Positions 28,870 through 54,960 of a DNA stretch of 64,000 bases are shown piece after piece (position 1 is the first letter of the stretch; every line of letters begins with the position of its first letter). The notes below the pieces were generated by a model that saw nothing but the letters and a program-made list of their open reading frames with translations, had not been told where the DNA came from and searched no databases. The stretch lies in IMG/VR virus record IMGVR_UViG_3300034170_000057; one strand, given 5' to 3'. Position numbers and translations under genes: made by a program. This DNA comes from a virus (taxonomy: Duplodnaviria; Caudoviricetes).

Positions 28870-29727
28870 ATGGGAAACACAATGAATTATCCAGTCTATA
28901 AATGCCACAAACAAGTCGAAGCATTTCAAATCGCACACATCACTGCGCAGCCGATGGGCACGCACGCCGACACGGTGCCAGAACAGCGCTTCGTTTCGGT
29001 TCCACGTGAAGACGGCACCGTTGAATTGTTGCCCACTGCATCCCACACAGAATACGTTTTGGTTGATAAAACCGGTGAATTCGTGGCTGTAGTCGGTGAT
29101 GATTACATGGGCCGTACCTCAGTTCATACGGGCGGTTATTTCGTGCAGTACGCGGACGGTTATCAATCGTTTAGCCCGCAGGAAGCATTTGAGGAAGGTT
29201 ACACACTAAACGAGATGCGGCGCACGCTGCACGTGAAAATGGGTAATACCAATTGGGCGCCAACCATCGAAGACATGCAGGGCGTAATGGATTTGTTTAT
29301 GTCGGTACAGGACGGCCCGACCGGCGCTGTAATCGTCACGAATCCGTGGATCACTGCGACCGTCGAAGAGACGTTGGTGACTGAAGACGCTGAAATTGTT
29401 GTGGTGAATTTGCGCAACAAAAAAGAAACGCTGACCGCACTGCAAAAACGCGACGGTGAAATCCTGTGGCATGCCACGCACGTATGGCCGGAAGGTCACG
29501 CACTGGTGGATAATCTGCGCCTCAGTCTGGACGGCCCTGAAATCCACGTGACTAATAGGAAAAAGGATGCGCACAAAGCACGCGGGCGCTCTGTCAATCG
29601 TGTGGTGCTGCATGGCGGTCTGAAATACAACGATATCGACCTCGATTTGGCCTCGGCCATCGGCTGTTCGATCCTGACTCACGAATACAAATTCAACAAA
29701 CGCGTTTTGTGGGAGGAAGTCGAGTGA
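28870..29727 (+). CDS. modular hypothetical protein (HKxVxA...GYxVxYxDGYxSxSP domain plus further modules)
   Basis: KCHKQVEAFQI ... GGYFVQYADGYQSFSPQEAFEEGY. Confidence 0.65.
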   Translation: MGNTMNYPVYKCHKQVEAFQIAHITAQPMGTHADTVPEQRFVSVPREDGTVELLPTASHTEYVLVDKTGEFVAVVGDDYMGRTSVHTGGYFVQYADGYQSFSPQEAFEEGYTLNEMRRTLHVKMGNTNWAPTIEDMQGVMDLFMSVQDGPTGAVIVTNPWITATVEETLVTEDAEIVVVNLRNKKETLTALQKRDGEILWHATHVWPEGHALVDNLRLSLDGPEIHVTNRKKDAHKARGRSVNRVVLHGGLKYNDIDLDLASAIGCSILTHEYKFNKRVLWEEVE

Positions 29728-30578
29728 AAGAGTTAGCGATTGCCAGCAACATGATCGTGATGGCACGCAACGCAAAAACGCTGAAGCAAAAGCGTAGCCT
29801 CATGCTGCAAATGGTCATGCCGCTGTTTTCCAAAGCGTCGGCTGATAAATTGGCTGATTGTATCGAGACGCATAACTCCCGTGAGTTCAGTACGTTGTGG
29901 CAGAGTTTGAAACCTGAAATCGCAGCCACGCTGGAAAAGAAACGGGATAAACCGGACTGGATTCCAAACGAAAAGAATATGGCGCTCGCCTCAATGGGCG
30001 ATATTACCCGTAGCGAGTGGAACGCTATGCACAACATCAGCACCGAGGAATCCAAGCCTGCCGAAATGAAAGAGACTTACGCCGACGTGACCACGTTCCA
30101 GCGCGACGGTGATACAGCGGTTTGCATCCAGACTTACGGCCCTCGGAAAATCCGCATTTCTGTTAACGGAAAAACCGTTATGGAAGGCGTTCCGGAAGAG
30201 GGAACGTTTGTTCCTGCAAATCCGATTGAAATGTCGGAACAGCCAAACCCTGATCCCGGTTTTGATCCTGCGTCACACGTCGAAGAATGCGGCGTGGTCG
30301 AAGAGCCACAAGCAACGGTGCAAATCAGCACTGGTCAAACCGGTGAAAACTACGTGCTAACCGGTGAACAAATGGTCAAGGTTGTTAAGCTGGTTTGCGA
30401 ACGTCTTTTGATGGACGCAGATCCGTGTCCACTCCCGCCGCGCATGATGGCAATGCCGACCAATTGTGCCGAACATGATTGGCCTGATTGCAAAGTTTGT
30501 TTGCATGGCCTCAAAGGGTTTGATTTCAGCGCCAATATCCTCGAACTCTACGACAAGCTGACTGCATCCAGCATTTAA
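29724..30578 (+). CDS. hypothetical protein
   Basis: GTG 29724 with GGAGG RBS and GTGA overlap; CAEHDWPDCKVCLH near the C-terminus. Confidence 0.65.
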   Translation: MKELAIASNMIVMARNAKTLKQKRSLMLQMVMPLFSKASADKLADCIETHNSREFSTLWQSLKPEIAATLEKKRDKPDWIPNEKNMALASMGDITRSEWNAMHNISTEESKPAEMKETYADVTTFQRDGDTAVCIQTYGPRKIRISVNGKTVMEGVPEEGTFVPANPIEMSEQPNPDPGFDPASHVEECGVVEEPQATVQISTGQTGENYVLTGEQMVKVVKLVCERLLMDADPCPLPPRMMAMPTNCAEHDWPDCKVCLHGLKGFDFSANILELYDKLTASSI

Positions 30579-30596
30579 ATGTGATTGAAACACCCT

Positions 30597-30625
30597 AAAG
30601 GGGAGCCGAAAGGTTCCCCTTTTTT
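30597..30625 (+). terminator. intrinsic terminator
   Basis: GGGGAGCC-GAAA-GGTTCCCC-TTTTTT. Confidence 0.88.
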
Positions 30626-30639
30626 ATTGCCTTTTTATT

Positions 30640-52434: not shown

Positions 52435-53340
52435 TTGCACTACTTCATTTCCAAGCCGTTAGATTTTCGTCTTTCGGCTTGGCCCCGTGGCGGCGATAAC
52501 TACATCACCACCTATAACACCGACCGTTATTTGATCGACATTAAAATGGTTCTCGATTATGTCGAAGAATCATTGAAGAAAACGCCGATGGCGTTCATCT
52601 TTAAAACCACGTTTACGCTGGTGAACATCTGGTCGATGTACAACAACATGAGCGTGGGGCTTGTCGATATGCCCCCGAAAGAAGTCCGGCGCACAGGCCT
52701 TGTGTTTACGTTCGCCCGGACGCTACGGAATAATGCTGACGTTCCAACCGTCAAGCACCAAACGTGGATGCGTGGCTATACCGCCATATGGGGAACAGCC
52801 GATAATCAGTCCGCAGATTTCATTAGCATTTCGATTCCGTTGAACATTCTGACACGTGCGCGCATGCAGCAAATGATGGAACGTGATCAGCGGTATTTGT
52901 ACGACATTGCAGGCGGATACACGAAAGCGATTATCCGGCAAAAGATCGGTTACACCGGTGGCGTTGAATCCACTGCTGGAAAACTCCTTTACCAGAATAT
53001 CCCAAGAGCCATGTTCTATACGGCCATGGATGATTGGAAATATGTTCTGGATTTCTGGAAGCGTATGCCCGATTTGTTGCATGTAGAATGGACGCCGAAA
53101 TTCATTGAATATTACGTCCGCTTTATTGCACCGAATCTGCCAATGCGCCGACGCAGTAAGTATTATGCACAGTACGAAGGTGAAGCGCAGGACAGCATTC
53201 GCGAATTCATTCTGCGTTTTGTGCAAAACCAAATCGAACCCGAGGAAGCTGGCCTAGCCGCGCTGCTGCCTTTGGAAGAATCCGCATTGCAAGATATTGA
53301 GACGCTAGTTGTTCAACTGTCTCAAGGGGTTGTGGAATGA
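52435..53340 (+). CDS. hypothetical protein
   Basis: 301 aa; TTG start. Confidence 0.7.
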   Translation: MHYFISKPLDFRLSAWPRGGDNYITTYNTDRYLIDIKMVLDYVEESLKKTPMAFIFKTTFTLVNIWSMYNNMSVGLVDMPPKEVRRTGLVFTFARTLRNNADVPTVKHQTWMRGYTAIWGTADNQSADFISISIPLNILTRARMQQMMERDQRYLYDIAGGYTKAIIRQKIGYTGGVESTAGKLLYQNIPRAMFYTAMDDWKYVLDFWKRMPDLLHVEWTPKFIEYYVRFIAPNLPMRRRSKYYAQYEGEAQDSIREFILRFVQNQIEPEEAGLAALLPLEESALQDIETLVVQLSQGVVE

Positions 53341-54554
53341 CCACCGTTCACGAAGGCGCAACCTGTACAATTATCGAAGAGTTTTTCGACGACTTCGACG
53401 ATCCGGTAATCCCGACGGAAAATAGTCCGGCGCCGCTTGTTCGTTTGTTCGACACTGACAAATCGGTAATTGCCGAGGTTTACGCAAAGCCGTATCAAAG
53501 CCAGCCCGGTCACTGGATTGCAGATTTACCGATCCCGAATATGAACCTGCGTGACGCCGTTGATTTGGTTGCACGCTGGACGTTTTCTAGTGACGTTGGG
53601 CAGTATCAGGCACGTTCAATTATCACCGTGGAACCGGCGAGCGTTGGGCGTGAATCTGACGTGGTTATTATTTGCGGACGTGACACGCGCATGCAGTTGA
53701 GTGTGCCCGTCACGTACAAGCCGCCAGTAGCCGCGAAGAAAGCCGACATGGCCGCTGGCACCACCGCGAAGAAAGCAAAGGAGGGTGATCTATTAACGGT
53801 TTCTCTCTACTACAACAACAAAACGGTTTTCGCTGATTGGGACGTGGAAGACAAAGCAATTAAAGTCGAACGTCAAAAGAATCGTACCGTTATCGACATG
53901 CCTGCAATTATCGGTAATCCGCAAATGTTCCCTCTAACGATGCTGGTGGATCACACCCCAGCGCGTAAGATTGCCAAAACTACGATGACTTACAAAGTGT
54001 GGGCAATTACCCCGCAAATCCTGACGGCCAGCCGCCAGCTTGAGGATTACATTAACCGTGCGCGGATCGCGAACATTATTCCTGAATTGGAATACACGCA
54101 ATCCGATATCATGGAATATCTCTCGCGTGGGTTGAGTTTCTTCAACGGATTGCAGCCGAACATTACGAACTTTACCGGCACCAACATGCAAGGGCCTTTG
54201 CTCGATGCATGGCTGACTTGTTCGTGTATCTACGCGCTCGGTTCGCAGAACTTGGCCGAGGGTAGTTTGGCATTTGATTTCGGTGGGCAAACAGTCAGCT
54301 TGAACGTTGACCGAACCCCTGCAATCGAAAGCGCATTGGGCCGTATTGATGCGCAAATTGAAAGCCAAGTAAAACCGCTGAAAAAATTGTTAGGTCGTGC
54401 TGGTGCTTTGGGCGGCGATGGCAGTGTGGGCGGTGGCTTCATTGATTCAAGTCGTGCGTTCGGTATCCTTGGGATTTCGAATACTGCGATGACGCGTATA
54501 CCGGGTTATCCGGGACGTGGATCGACTGGCGGATTCTTCCGCAATTTCTTTTAA
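53337..54554 (+). CDS. putative head-tail adaptor (neck) protein
   Basis: C-terminal EYLSRGLSFFN..AFDFGGQTVSLNVDR..Gly-rich tail, resembling large-phage adaptors (inference). Confidence 0.5.
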   Translation: MTTVHEGATCTIIEEFFDDFDDPVIPTENSPAPLVRLFDTDKSVIAEVYAKPYQSQPGHWIADLPIPNMNLRDAVDLVARWTFSSDVGQYQARSIITVEPASVGRESDVVIICGRDTRMQLSVPVTYKPPVAAKKADMAAGTTAKKAKEGDLLTVSLYYNNKTVFADWDVEDKAIKVERQKNRTVIDMPAIIGNPQMFPLTMLVDHTPARKIAKTTMTYKVWAITPQILTASRQLEDYINRARIANIIPELEYTQSDIMEYLSRGLSFFNGLQPNITNFTGTNMQGPLLDAWLTCSCIYALGSQNLAEGSLAFDFGGQTVSLNVDRTPAIESALGRIDAQIESQVKPLKKLLGRAGALGGDGSVGGGFIDSSRAFGILGISNTAMTRIPGYPGRGSTGGFFRNFF

Positions 54555-54573
54555 CGTGACGTGGGGCATAAAG

Positions 54574-54960
54574 ATGACCGAACAACCGATGACCGAACAG
54601 CAACTCAAAGATAAATATGATGTAGAAAATTGCACGTATTTGCAGCGTCTTCCGGAAGCCCTAGAAAAGGGCGTCATTGTTGACGATACCATTTTCCAAA
54701 ACATGGAAGAGGCGGCCACGCTTCTTAGCAAATCTAAATACGCGCTGCTTCACAATAAACCGTGGTCTGACATTATCGGTTCCAATGCGTGTGCGGCTGT
54801 ATTTGATCCGCTTACGAAATACTCATTGGTAATGGATGGAAGCCTCGGTCAAATGCTCGGTTGTCAGTTGTATACCGATGGTTTCATGGCTCCGCATTTG
54901 AAAGATAAAAGCCCGGAAACAATGGGCAAGGTTATCTTCGTGCCCCGCGACACTGAATAA
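54574..54960 (+). CDS. small protein resembling a major-capsid P-domain fragment
   Basis: FDPLTKYSLVMDGSLGQMLGCQLYTDGF. Confidence 0.5.
   Translation: MTEQPMTEQQLKDKYDVENCTYLQRLPEALEKGVIVDDTIFQNMEEAATLLSKSKYALLHNKPWSDIIGSNACAAVFDPLTKYSLVMDGSLGQMLGCQLYTDGFMAPHLKDKSPETMGKVIFVPRDTE

What the first reader, a model, noticed from the sequence alone, without database searches (positions are those of the whole stretch)
28870..54960. Candidate new system: dispersed small genes carrying isolated fragments of virion proteins (sheath, portal, tube, capsid)
At least six short or modular genes contain a segment that reads like part of a core virion protein, usually fused to an unrelated module: sheath-like in 44751 and 46818, portal-like in 43746 and 28870, tube-like in 45140, capsid P-domain-like in 54574. 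None is long enough to be the real structural protein. Established: host defences sense these proteins (Avs2/Avs4 sense portal, DSR2 senses tail tube, CapRel and Lit sense major capsid). Inference: the fragments could be decoys that titrate such sensors, interfere with assembly of co-infecting phages, or act as assembly regulators. The similarities are recalled motifs; the sheath cases are strongest, portal and tube weakest.
Basis: inference. Interest (0 to 1): 0.82.

Follow-up and report, generated by a model that had tools for sequence, protein, structure and literature searches.

The report
Small genes copying virion protein pieces
A giant phage related to Pseudomonas phage Lu11 carries several small, conserved accessory genes that each hold a copy of a conserved piece of its own capsid, tail-sheath or portal protein; this kind of gene set has not been described, and what it does is still unknown.

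Summary
The window comes from a jumbo phage about 80% identical in protein to Pseudomonas phages Lu11 and HRDY3.

Four of the six claimed similarities are real and significant against the true virion proteins of Lu11 and HRDY3:
- 28870 matches the portal.
- 43746 matches the portal, and also carries a sheath motif.
- 44751 holds a sheath hairpin motif fused to an HTH_37 domain.
- 54574 matches the major capsid protein.

The other two fared differently. 46818 is moderately supported as a stand-alone sheath C-terminal domain. The tube likeness of 45140 is not supported.

54574 is not a broken fragment. It folds as a compact domain (AlphaFold2 pLDDT 96) that matches only HK97 capsid proteins. It belongs to an old, unannotated family of small proteins found in many metagenomic phages.

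All the genes are intact, conserved in relatives and under purifying selection. The pieces are shuffled between proteins in different phages. Some alleles are swapped or deleted in close relatives, as is usual for accessory or conflict genes.

Function was not determined. My best guess (about 0.4) is that the copied elements dock onto the partners of the virion proteins and so cap, delay or report assembly. A role as decoys for host sensors remains open.

The parts
28870..29727 (+). o28870, 285 aa. The N-terminal domain (aa 1-115) belongs to phrog_11049/872, a family widespread in phages. A portal-like piece follows at aa 117-162 (nt 29218-29355). A C-terminal extension of about 90 aa is absent from the Lu11 and HRDY3 homologues.
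   Evidence: PHROG hits. Identity to the Lu11/HRDY3 portal is 21/44. Family HMM E = 2e-11 and hhalign 96.5%. Homologues are Lu11 100307-100897 and HRDY3 XDJ15160; the latter is mis-annotated as 'portal protein'.
43746..44264 (+). o43746, 172 aa. It holds a sheath-like WxPAGxxRGxIE motif (aa 16-42, nt 43791-43871), a portal-like MGISEEFLxG piece (aa 48-80, nt 43887-43985) and a shared C-terminal module GKRFRSLRLARV (aa 120-144, nt 44103-44177).
   Evidence: Eight metagenomic homologues keep GISEE.L and GKRFRSLRLARV invariant.
44227..44754 (+). o44227, about 160-175 aa; the start codon is uncertain. It has a weak MCP-like piece (aa 86-135, nt 44482-44631) and a YRSARAARV motif (nt 44671-44697). 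The gene is deleted in a relative that is 95-99% identical.
   Evidence: hhalign against MCP gives 15-40% and against the 54574 family 43%. It is conserved at 65-83% in L060-L062. The deletion joint 44277>44737 appears in run X2.
44751..45143 (+). o44751, 130 aa. An N-terminal sheath hairpin motif ICDETNNPP...N.L.LDFV (aa 4-38, nt 44760-44864) is fused to an Xre-type HTH_37 domain (aa 52-121, nt 44904-45113).
   Evidence: Pfam PF13744 scores 35.4 bits against a cut-off of 27. Sheath match. The same N-terminal piece occurs in Lu11 gp115 (with an HTH), in HRDY3 XDJ15183 (with a 43746-like domain) and in a 111-aa Erwinia phage ORF.
45140..45556 (+). o45140, 138 aa. No virion-protein likeness was found. 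It shares the C-terminal module ..GA.VEY....FRSLRLAQV.AK (aa 93-123, nt 45416-45508) with o43746.
   Evidence: hhalign of F43746 against F45140 gives 94.9%, E = 4e-8. Tube and sheath comparisons are at background level.
46818..47204 (+). o46818, 128 aa. It is probably a stand-alone sheath C-terminal domain (colinear with sheath aa 436-534). An Arg-rich insert (YGRRRAHWVGRQ) replaces the CDxTNN hairpin loop.
   Evidence: hhalign with a 13-row family gives 79.7%, E = 1.5e-5 over 93 columns. It ranks first of 214 control families. Pfam finds nothing. Homologues are Lu11 gp113 and HRDY3 XDJ15189.
54574..54960 (+). o54574, 128 aa. It is a stand-alone HK97 A-domain paralogue of the major capsid protein ('mini-MCP'). 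The strongest similarity is at aa 57-110 (nt 54742-54903).

Best explanation
SHOWN. The genes are intact, conserved accessory genes of a Lu11-like jumbo phage. Their products are domain-level or motif-level paralogues of the phage lineage's own virion proteins.
- o54574 is a compact stand-alone capsid A-domain.
- o46818 is probably a stand-alone sheath C-terminal domain.
- o44751 is a sheath hairpin motif on a helix-turn-helix protein.
- o43746 joins a sheath motif and a portal motif.
- o28870 joins a common small phage domain to a portal segment.

INFERRED. The copied elements are the most conserved, contact-forming parts of the virion proteins. I therefore propose that the small proteins work by mimicry. 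Each would dock onto whatever the original element binds. For the sheath hairpin that would be the N- and C-terminal 'handshake' strands of sheath subunits. For the A-domain it would be neighbouring capsid subunits. For the portal pieces it would be neighbouring portal subunits or portal partners. In this way they would cap, delay or report the assembly of the phage's own virions or those of co-infecting relatives. The HTH and Arg-rich modules fused to several of them would link this to nucleic-acid binding, meaning regulation.

The direction of the effect and the true partners are not known.
For: The similarities are real.
- Family HMM and hhalign values are 2e-11 to 1e-19, or 93-99%, for portal, sheath and MCP.
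- These families are also the top hits among 210 control families of the same proteome.
- They are the only matches to large proteins outside the syntenic region in an unbiased scan.

The genes are selected, not decaying.
- dN/dS is 0.09-0.41, and the genes are conserved in Lu11, HRDY3 and five metagenomic relatives.
- o54574 folds on its own: pLDDT 96 and pTM 0.87.
- All ten nearest Atlas structure clusters are HK97 capsid families, with TM by query 0.54-0.63 over 103-121 of 128 residues.
- Its family has at least 25 clusters at 50% identity and forms one clade apart from the MCPs.

The copied elements are the conserved cores.
- The sheath piece equals the T4 gp18 'CDTTNNTP' hairpin region.
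- In its 54-residue piece, o54574 is 56% identical to the HRDY3 MCP. Lu11 and Erwinia phage MCPs share only 48% there.

The pieces behave as independent cassettes. The sheath hairpin is fused to an HTH in this phage and in Lu11, but to a portal-piece domain in HRDY3. The MCP unit is duplicated in tandem in Lu11 gp106.

Sheath rings are held together by beta-augmentation of a domain hairpin by N- and C-terminal strands. Non-sheath proteins such as the terminator use the same contact (PMC10304247).
Against: - No binding was shown.
- The genes lie in middle/late operons together with replication genes, not in the virion modules.
- One protein combines motifs of sheath and portal, which do not touch in a virion. 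That is awkward for a pure assembly role.
- Allele swapping (dS above 1.3 beside neighbours at 0.3-0.5) and presence/absence in a near-identical relative fit conflict genes at least as well.
- More distant mini-MCP homologues sit in islands of small accessory genes, once near a Tad2-like gene.
- I did not establish that the sheath motif is the hairpin that accepts the handshake strands.
Confidence: 0.4

Rival explanations
1. The proteins are antagonists or decoys in a conflict. They would present conserved virion epitopes to host pattern-recognition defences such as Avs-type sensors, SpbK or CapRel. Alternatively they would present them to satellite proteins that grip capsid or tail parts. In either case they would occupy the target without activating it.
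For: - Host sensors do target the conserved core of portal, capsid and tail proteins (review PMC13728456).
- Multi-epitope chimeras (sheath plus portal motifs in o43746 and in HRDY3 XDJ15183) are easier to explain as decoys than as assembly factors.
- The loci show allele swapping and gene loss between near-identical relatives.
- Distant mini-MCP homologues lie in accessory-gene islands, one with a Tad2-like gene.
- The o28870 N-domain weakly resembles Tad2-like and Sequestin models, TM about 0.3.
Against: - Known sensors are switched on by ligand binding, so a mimic would be expected to trigger them.
- Avs-type sensors read whole folds, not pieces of 25-45 residues.
- The review I read describes no virion-protein decoy.
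- The Pfam Tad2 model does not match o28870.
- No host defence context is available for this uncultured phage.
Confidence: 0.22
2. The domains were exapted and do not act by mimicry. Old duplicates of virion-gene segments were recruited as generic folds or linkers for unrelated jobs, such as DNA or RNA binding or host takeover. On this view the likeness to virion proteins reflects ancestry and fold constraints only.
For: - The mini-MCP family is old and monophyletic and does not track its cognate MCP.
- It is a stable globular domain.
- Several of the proteins carry HTH or Arg-rich modules that could be the working part.
- Among close relatives, the HTH of o44751 is better conserved (87%) than the sheath piece (46%).
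Against: - Three different virion proteins are involved, and no non-virion protein is.
- Motifs of 25-35 residues, too short to be folds, keep the exact signature residues of sheath and portal between Lu11 and this phage, where the rest of the protein is only 29% identical.
Confidence: 0.3
3. The similarities are chance matches or annotation artefacts.
For: - The tube likeness of 45140 is at background level.
- The 44227 match to MCP and the 43746 match to sheath are marginal.
- Database labels such as 'portal protein' (HRDY3 XDJ15160) and 'major head protein' (Lu11 gp106) are artefacts of partial PHROG hits.
- WD40 proteins turned up as false positives in the large search.
Against: Four cases pass database-wide, proteome-wide and profile-profile tests, and one also passes structure comparison.
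Confidence: 0.05

Closest known systems
Full-length paralogues of virion proteins within one phage (T4 gp24 beside gp23; the two tail sheath proteins of PaBG and Lu11, PMC7412058)
   Same: A structural gene has been duplicated and a second copy retained in the same genome.
   Different: Those paralogues are full length and built into the virion. Here only one domain, or a motif of 25-45 residues, is kept. It sits in small proteins, often fused to unrelated modules, and is encoded among replication genes.
Satellite-encoded capsid homologues and capsid-redirecting proteins (SaPI Ccm, P4 Sid/Psu, PLE TcaP; PDB 8g1r appeared among the fold matches)
   Same: A protein related to, or binding, the HK97 capsid protein is used to alter the assembly of another element's capsid.
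   Different: Those proteins are encoded by satellites and act on the helper phage. Ccm is a complete HK97 fold. Here the phage itself encodes an A-domain-only protein, and no effect on assembly has been shown.
Proteins that accept the sheath 'handshake' strands by beta-augmentation (the tail terminator of P1 and pyocin, PMC10304247)
   Same: If the o44751 N-terminus forms the hairpin it copies, it could accept sheath N- and C-terminal strands in the way terminators and the next sheath ring do.
   Different: Terminators are structural proteins, are not homologous to the sheath hairpin and carry no DNA-binding domain. Binding by o44751 is only inferred.
Phage anti-defence proteins that act by molecular mimicry (Ocr DNA mimic; ICP1 Gp145 antitoxin mimic, PMC13728456)
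   Same: The principle is the same: a small phage protein imitates a ligand in order to occupy a partner.
   Different: Known mimics imitate DNA or host antitoxins. I found no described mimic of a phage's own virion protein.
Assembly-coupled gene regulation (autoregulation by P22 scaffolding protein; the flagellar FlgM checkpoint). This comparison comes from my own knowledge.
   Same: A regulator's activity depends on whether structural subunits are free or assembled. A sheath-motif-HTH fusion could work in this way.
   Different: Those regulators are not chimeras of a structural-protein motif and a DNA-binding domain. No DNA target or sheath binding is known for o44751.

Membership tests
HK97-fold major capsid protein (phrog_2522; PaBG gp80 type) | A complete fold with N-arm, E-loop, P-domain spine helix and A-domain, in a protein of about 360 aa that can build a shell | tested here: not met
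   o54574 has 128 aa. Sequence alignment covers only MCP aa about 225-318.
HK97-fold major capsid protein (phrog_2522; PaBG gp80 type) | Homology and fold of the A-domain region | tested here: met
   hhalign 99.2%, E = 2e-19. AlphaFold2 pLDDT 96. Ten of the ten nearest Atlas clusters are capsid families, TM by query 0.54-0.63. About half of the top 50 VIA rows are HK97 capsids, although Z is at most 4.6.
Contractile tail sheath (Pfam PF04984 Phage_sheath_1 plus PF17482 Phage_sheath_1C) | Both Pfam domains present, as in sheath A and B of Lu11 | tested here: not met
   Pfam finds neither domain in o44751, o43746 or o46794 at E up to 0.1. The real sheaths have both.
Contractile tail sheath, C-terminal domain only (PF17482-like) | Colinear homology to the whole C-terminal domain | tested here: inconclusive
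   The o46818 family against the sheath family gives hhalign 79.7%, E = 1.5e-5 over 93 columns, with a replaced loop, and ranks first of 214 control families. There is no Pfam hit and no structure model.
Contractile tail sheath, conserved hairpin motif (T4 gp18 'CDTTNNTP...') | The signature residues C-D-x-T/S-N-N-x-P ... N ... L/F-x-x-D/T-F/V | tested here: met
   o44751 aa 9-30 carry the signature. Identity to Lu11 sheath A is 14/33 and hhalign is 94-96%.
Portal protein (phrog_16240, 643-672 aa, encoded next to the large terminase in Erwinia phage SNUABM_35) | Full-length portal fold (wing, stem, clip, crown) | tested here: not met
   Only aa 117-162 of o28870 and aa 48-80 of o43746 match, corresponding to portal aa 286-390. 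With the Erwinia phage portal the o43746 match stretches weakly to about aa 164. The full-length portals lie elsewhere in Lu11 and HRDY3.
Tail tube (phrog_45, T4 gp19 type) | Profile similarity to the lineage's tube proteins | tested here: not met
   The o45140 family against the tube proteins gives hhalign 0.2-7.7%, with scores within the background of 210 families.
Xre-type helix-turn-helix, Pfam HTH_37 (PF13744) | A score above the Pfam gathering threshold | tested here: met
   o44751 aa 52-121 score 35.4 bits against a cut-off of 27, E = 9.5e-9.
Tad2-like anti-Thoeris sponge (PF11195), considered for the o28870 N-domain | A Pfam model match or a clear fold match | tested here: inconclusive
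   There is no Pfam hit at E up to 0.1. The Atlas shape search lists a Tad2-like cluster at TM 0.30/0.36 only, and it rests on a low-confidence model with pLDDT 0.48.

The most novel reading that the evidence does not exclude
The small genes form a dedicated virion-mimic toolkit. They would be shuffled cassettes of conserved capsid, sheath and portal elements, some tied to DNA- or RNA-binding modules. Giant phages would use them as multi-epitope antagonists of host or satellite proteins that recognise the core virion proteome. Alternatively they would serve as checkpoints that couple gene expression to head and tail assembly.
Probability: 0.2. Interest if true: 0.9.

Novelty: new variant of a known kind. 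Interest (0 to 1): 0.62.

Why it matters
Capsid, sheath and portal proteins are the parts of tailed phages that change least, and they are what many bacterial sensors recognise. A phage that keeps extra, selected mini-copies of exactly those parts points to a layer of control or conflict built on self-mimicry.

The stand-alone capsid A-domain family is large, unannotated and folds well, so it is ready for structural and binding work. Lu11 grows on Pseudomonas putida and carries members of at least four of the families: gp106 (mini-capsid), gp115 (sheath motif plus HTH), gp113 (sheath C-domain-like) and the product of 100307-100897 (portal piece). The ideas can therefore be tested directly.

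The work also exposes mis-annotations. Small proteins are labelled 'portal protein' or 'major head protein' in public records on the strength of partial profile hits.

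Tried and rejected
- Megablast of 5 kb against the phage collection found nothing.
- An exact 40-mer of the window was not found in the viral contigs.
- No whole genome is held for this window, so the phage's own portal, sheath and capsid genes could not be used. Lu11 and HRDY3 served as stand-ins.
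- The first AlphaFold2 run of o54574, with 7 alignment rows, gave pLDDT 51 and was discarded.
- Complex prediction of o54574 with a capsid protein only 62% identical to the lineage's own (P0026) returned 'no answer', score 0.00. This is neither evidence for nor against binding.
- Foldseek against the PDB gave nothing below E = 0.001 for the o54574 model.
- phmmer and profile searches of the portal against PDB sequences found no solved relative. The portal pieces could therefore not be mapped onto named structural elements.
- ESM Atlas look-ups for o43746 and o28870 rest on low-confidence models and gave no usable family.
- Two hits in the large profile search, of 1181 and 2058 aa, matched in multiple stretches. 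The 1181-aa one was inspected and is a WD40-repeat false positive. The 2058-aa one was set aside on the same pattern without inspection.
- About 13 small hits in that search are truncated capsid genes.
- A peat 'metatranscriptome' run holds the region almost letter for letter in a 17-kb contig. It is probably the source sample and may contain DNA, so it does not show transcription.
- The Lu11 genome paper (PMC3372202) is not held, so virion proteomics for gp106 and gp115 could not be checked.
- All-against-all blastp of the window's ORFs found no paralogues. The shared C-terminal module appeared only in profile comparison.

Full report
**What the window is**

Genes from about 27 kb to 57 kb run on the + strand. 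They include a clamp loader, SbcC- and SbcD-like nucleases and many small ORFs.

A 405-aa conserved protein is 83% identical to Pseudomonas phage HRDY3 (314 kb) and 80% identical to Lu11 (281 kb). More distant relatives are PaBG and the Erwinia and Dickeya jumbo phages. There is no nucleotide-level match in the phage collection, and gene order is shared with Lu11 and HRDY3. No whole genome is held for the window. I therefore fetched both relatives completely and used their virion proteins as the test set.

The test set was validated as follows.
- Portal: the full-length phrog_16240 family, which lies next to the large terminase in Erwinia phage SNUABM_35.
- Sheath: two paralogues, both with the Pfam sheath domains and alignable to T4 gp18. 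Both are virion proteins in PaBG (PMC7412058).
- Major capsid protein (MCP): matches the phage G capsid protein, PDB 6wkk.
- Tube: two tube proteins of phrog_45.

**Check of the six claims**

| Gene | Claimed likeness | Result | Key numbers |
|---|---|---|---|
| 28870 | portal | confirmed | 21/44 identical; family HMM 2e-11 against 3,766 ORFs; hhalign 96.5% |
| 43746 | portal | confirmed | 12/24 identical to the HRDY3 portal, 28% over 118 aa to the Erwinia phage portal; family HMM 8e-4; hhalign 92.8% |
| 44751 | sheath | confirmed | 14/33 identical to sheath A; family HMM 2e-6; hhalign 94-96% |
| 54574 | capsid | confirmed | 30/54 identical, E = 6e-18; family HMM 1e-19; hhalign 99.2% |
| 46818 | sheath | moderate | hhalign 79.7%, E = 1.5e-5, 93 columns; first of 214 controls |
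| 45140 | tube | not supported | scores within background |

As a control, I compared each small-protein family with 210 profiles built from Lu11-HRDY3 orthologue pairs. The cognate virion protein was the top non-self hit for 28870, 43746 and 54574. For 44751 the top hit was sheath B. Sheath A was missing from that control set and was tested separately. The margins were wide for 28870 and 54574 and clear for 43746 and 44751.

For 46818, a 13-row family aligns colinearly with the whole sheath C-terminal domain (aa 436-534). An Arg-rich insert sits where the hairpin loop would be.

Two further likenesses emerged.
- The N-terminus of 43746 carries the sheath motif WxPAGxxRGxIE and ranks second of 210 families.
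- 44227 weakly resembles the same capsid segment that 54574 matches.

An unbiased tblastn of every window ORF against both genomes was also run. The only matches to large proteins encoded outside the syntenic region were to portal, sheath and capsid.

**What the pieces are**

The sheath piece of 44751 is the region that aligns with T4 gp18 'YRVVCDTTNNTPSVIDRNEFVATFYIQP'. This is one of the best conserved stretches of the sheath C-terminal domain. The portal pieces of 28870 and 43746 fall in adjacent parts of the most conserved block of the portal alignment, aa 286-390.

The capsid piece is not a fragment in the sense of a broken gene. A profile search of 1.84 billion representative proteins found these groups:
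- about 40 clusters of full-length capsid proteins;
- at least 25 clusters of true small homologues of 112-170 aa, typically ending in FVPR;
- about 20 other small proteins holding only this capsid region;
- about 13 truncated capsid genes;
- two long hits matching in multiple stretches, one of them confirmed as a WD40-repeat false positive.

With that 102-row alignment, AlphaFold2 folds o54574 as a compact alpha/beta domain with pLDDT 96 and pTM 0.87. All ten nearest structure clusters of the ESM Atlas are HK97 capsid families, with TM by query 0.54-0.63 over 103-121 of 128 residues. In the wide VIA search, about half of the top 50 chains are HK97 capsids or encapsulins, although Z does not exceed 4.6. 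BFVD returns Lu11 gp106, a capsid protein, and then small uncharacterised proteins of PaBG, Y3, Motura and BcepSauron.

A tree of the shared 73 columns places the o54574-type proteins in one clade of 25, apart from the capsid clade. The family therefore stems from an old duplication and is not being copied repeatedly from the resident capsid gene. Among cultured phages the small form was found only in Lu11, as gp106 with two tandem units.

**Selection and modularity**

All the small ORFs, 44227 included, have syntenic homologues in metagenomic relatives. dN/dS against these is 0.09-0.41, compared with 0.07-0.10 for SbcC and SbcD.

43746, 45140 and 46818 are far more diverged (dS above 1.3) than their neighbours (dS 0.3-0.5). 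This points to allele replacement. A relative 95-99% identical in DNA lacks 44227 and the 50-aa ORF at 43597.

The pieces move between proteins.
- HRDY3 XDJ15183 has the sheath hairpin, then the portal motif, then the FRSLRxA module.
- Lu11 gp115 and o44751 have the sheath hairpin followed by an HTH.
- An Erwinia phage has a 111-aa ORF holding the hairpin within a longer sheath C-domain-like stretch.
- 43746 and 45140 share a C-terminal module, G..V....FRSLRLA.V.K (hhalign 94.9%). A weaker form is present in 44227.

The Lu11 middle/late promoter core CTGTAAATA occurs 11 times in the window against 0.3 expected. Its positions put 43746-47204 in the clamp-loader/SbcC unit and 54574 in the unit that starts before SbcD.

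**How it may work**

No function was shown. What can be said is the following.
- Three different core virion proteins are copied, and no other protein class is.
- The copies keep the signature residues.
- The copies are under selection.
- They behave as independent cassettes.

Mimicry is the simplest reading: the copied element docks onto what the original binds. For sheaths, rings are joined by beta-augmentation of a domain hairpin by the N- and C-terminal strands of neighbouring subunits. The terminator uses the same contact (PMC10304247). A hairpin on an HTH protein could therefore be captured by free or terminal sheath subunits. I did not establish that the copied hairpin is that acceptor.

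The alternative, that the partners are host or satellite proteins, has these points in its favour:
- the sheath-plus-portal chimeras;
- the allele turnover;
- the accessory-island context of distant homologues.

Current literature shows many sensors of portal, capsid and tail proteins, but the review I read describes no virion-protein decoy (PMC13728456). Against a simple decoy, such sensors are activated by binding.

A third reading is that the domains were merely recruited for unrelated functions.

| Reading | My weight |
|---|---|
| Assembly-linked mimicry | about 0.4 |
| Exaptation without mimicry | about 0.3 |
| Conflict antagonist or decoy | about 0.2 |
| Artefact | under 0.05 |

**Relation to earlier notes of this scan**

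Other first-stage notes on this genome had already listed five of these features:
- the mini-capsid paralogue;
- the sheath-peptide/HTH fusion;
- the sheath C-domain-like 46818;
- the shared RSxRxA module;
- the three-module 28870.

I tested each here. The results agree, with two exceptions. The fourth claimed member of the RSxRxA module (46818) is not supported by profile comparison. The Tad2 link of 28870 remains unproven.

**Verdict**

The proposed functions remain open. The thing is best described as a new variant of a known kind: paralogues of virion proteins reduced to single domains or motifs and redeployed in small accessory proteins.

Noticed in passing
Lu11 NC_017972 77477-78340 (gp106) and HRDY3 PQ015379 165203-165793 (XDJ15160): Public records call these small proteins 'major head protein' (288 aa) and 'portal protein' (196 aa). 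The names come from partial PHROG hits. The true MCP and portal lie elsewhere in both genomes.
   Followed up: yes
window 4704, 5747, 6412, 6763, 13406, 14811, 21130 (- strand); 30727, 36651, 47221, 57221 (+ strand): The core of Lu11's annotated middle/late promoter, CTGTAAATA, occurs 11 times against 0.3 expected. It always lies on the coding strand of the local genes, so it marks likely transcription units.
   Followed up: partly
window 45498-45926 and 46474-46821: Lu11 gp114, the 'putative endolysin', matches two separate window ORFs. One is a phrog_5822/PTH2-like ORF and the other is a LysM ORF. Two or three extra small ORFs (45928, 46109) lie between them. The gene is therefore either split here or fused in Lu11.
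   Followed up: no
window 53337-54554: The 405-aa protein labelled 'head-tail connector' (phrog_17327) sits among replication genes, directly upstream of the mini-capsid gene. The label is unverified, and the gene is conserved from Pseudomonas to Erwinia, Burkholderia and Rhizobium jumbo phages.
   Followed up: no
window 43596-43746 and 44277-44737: A relative 95-99% identical, from a biofilm metagenome (run X2), lacks the 50-aa ORF 43597 and most of 44227. It also has a 12-base insertion in 43746. This is presence/absence variation inside the cassette.
   Followed up: partly
Lu11 26679-30185 versus 12137-12745; HRDY3 237892-240423 versus 260430-261035: This is another stand-alone copy of part of a large protein. 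A protein of about 200 aa is 37-47% identical to an internal 200-aa stretch of an 843-1168-aa protein encoded near the tail genes. It may be a further case of the same theme outside this window.
   Followed up: no
window 48688-50133 and 36402-36656: The Lys/Ala/Pro-rich 481-aa protein shares a short Lys-rich stretch with the small ORF at 36402 and with its HRDY3 homologue. This is low-complexity sequence and not evidence of relatedness.
   Followed up: no
L063 (Logan ERR14149716 contig), 1-475 and 5001-5357: In a distant relative, a 118-aa mini-capsid homologue lies 4.5 kb from a Tad2-like (PF11195) gene, in an island of small genes.
   Followed up: no
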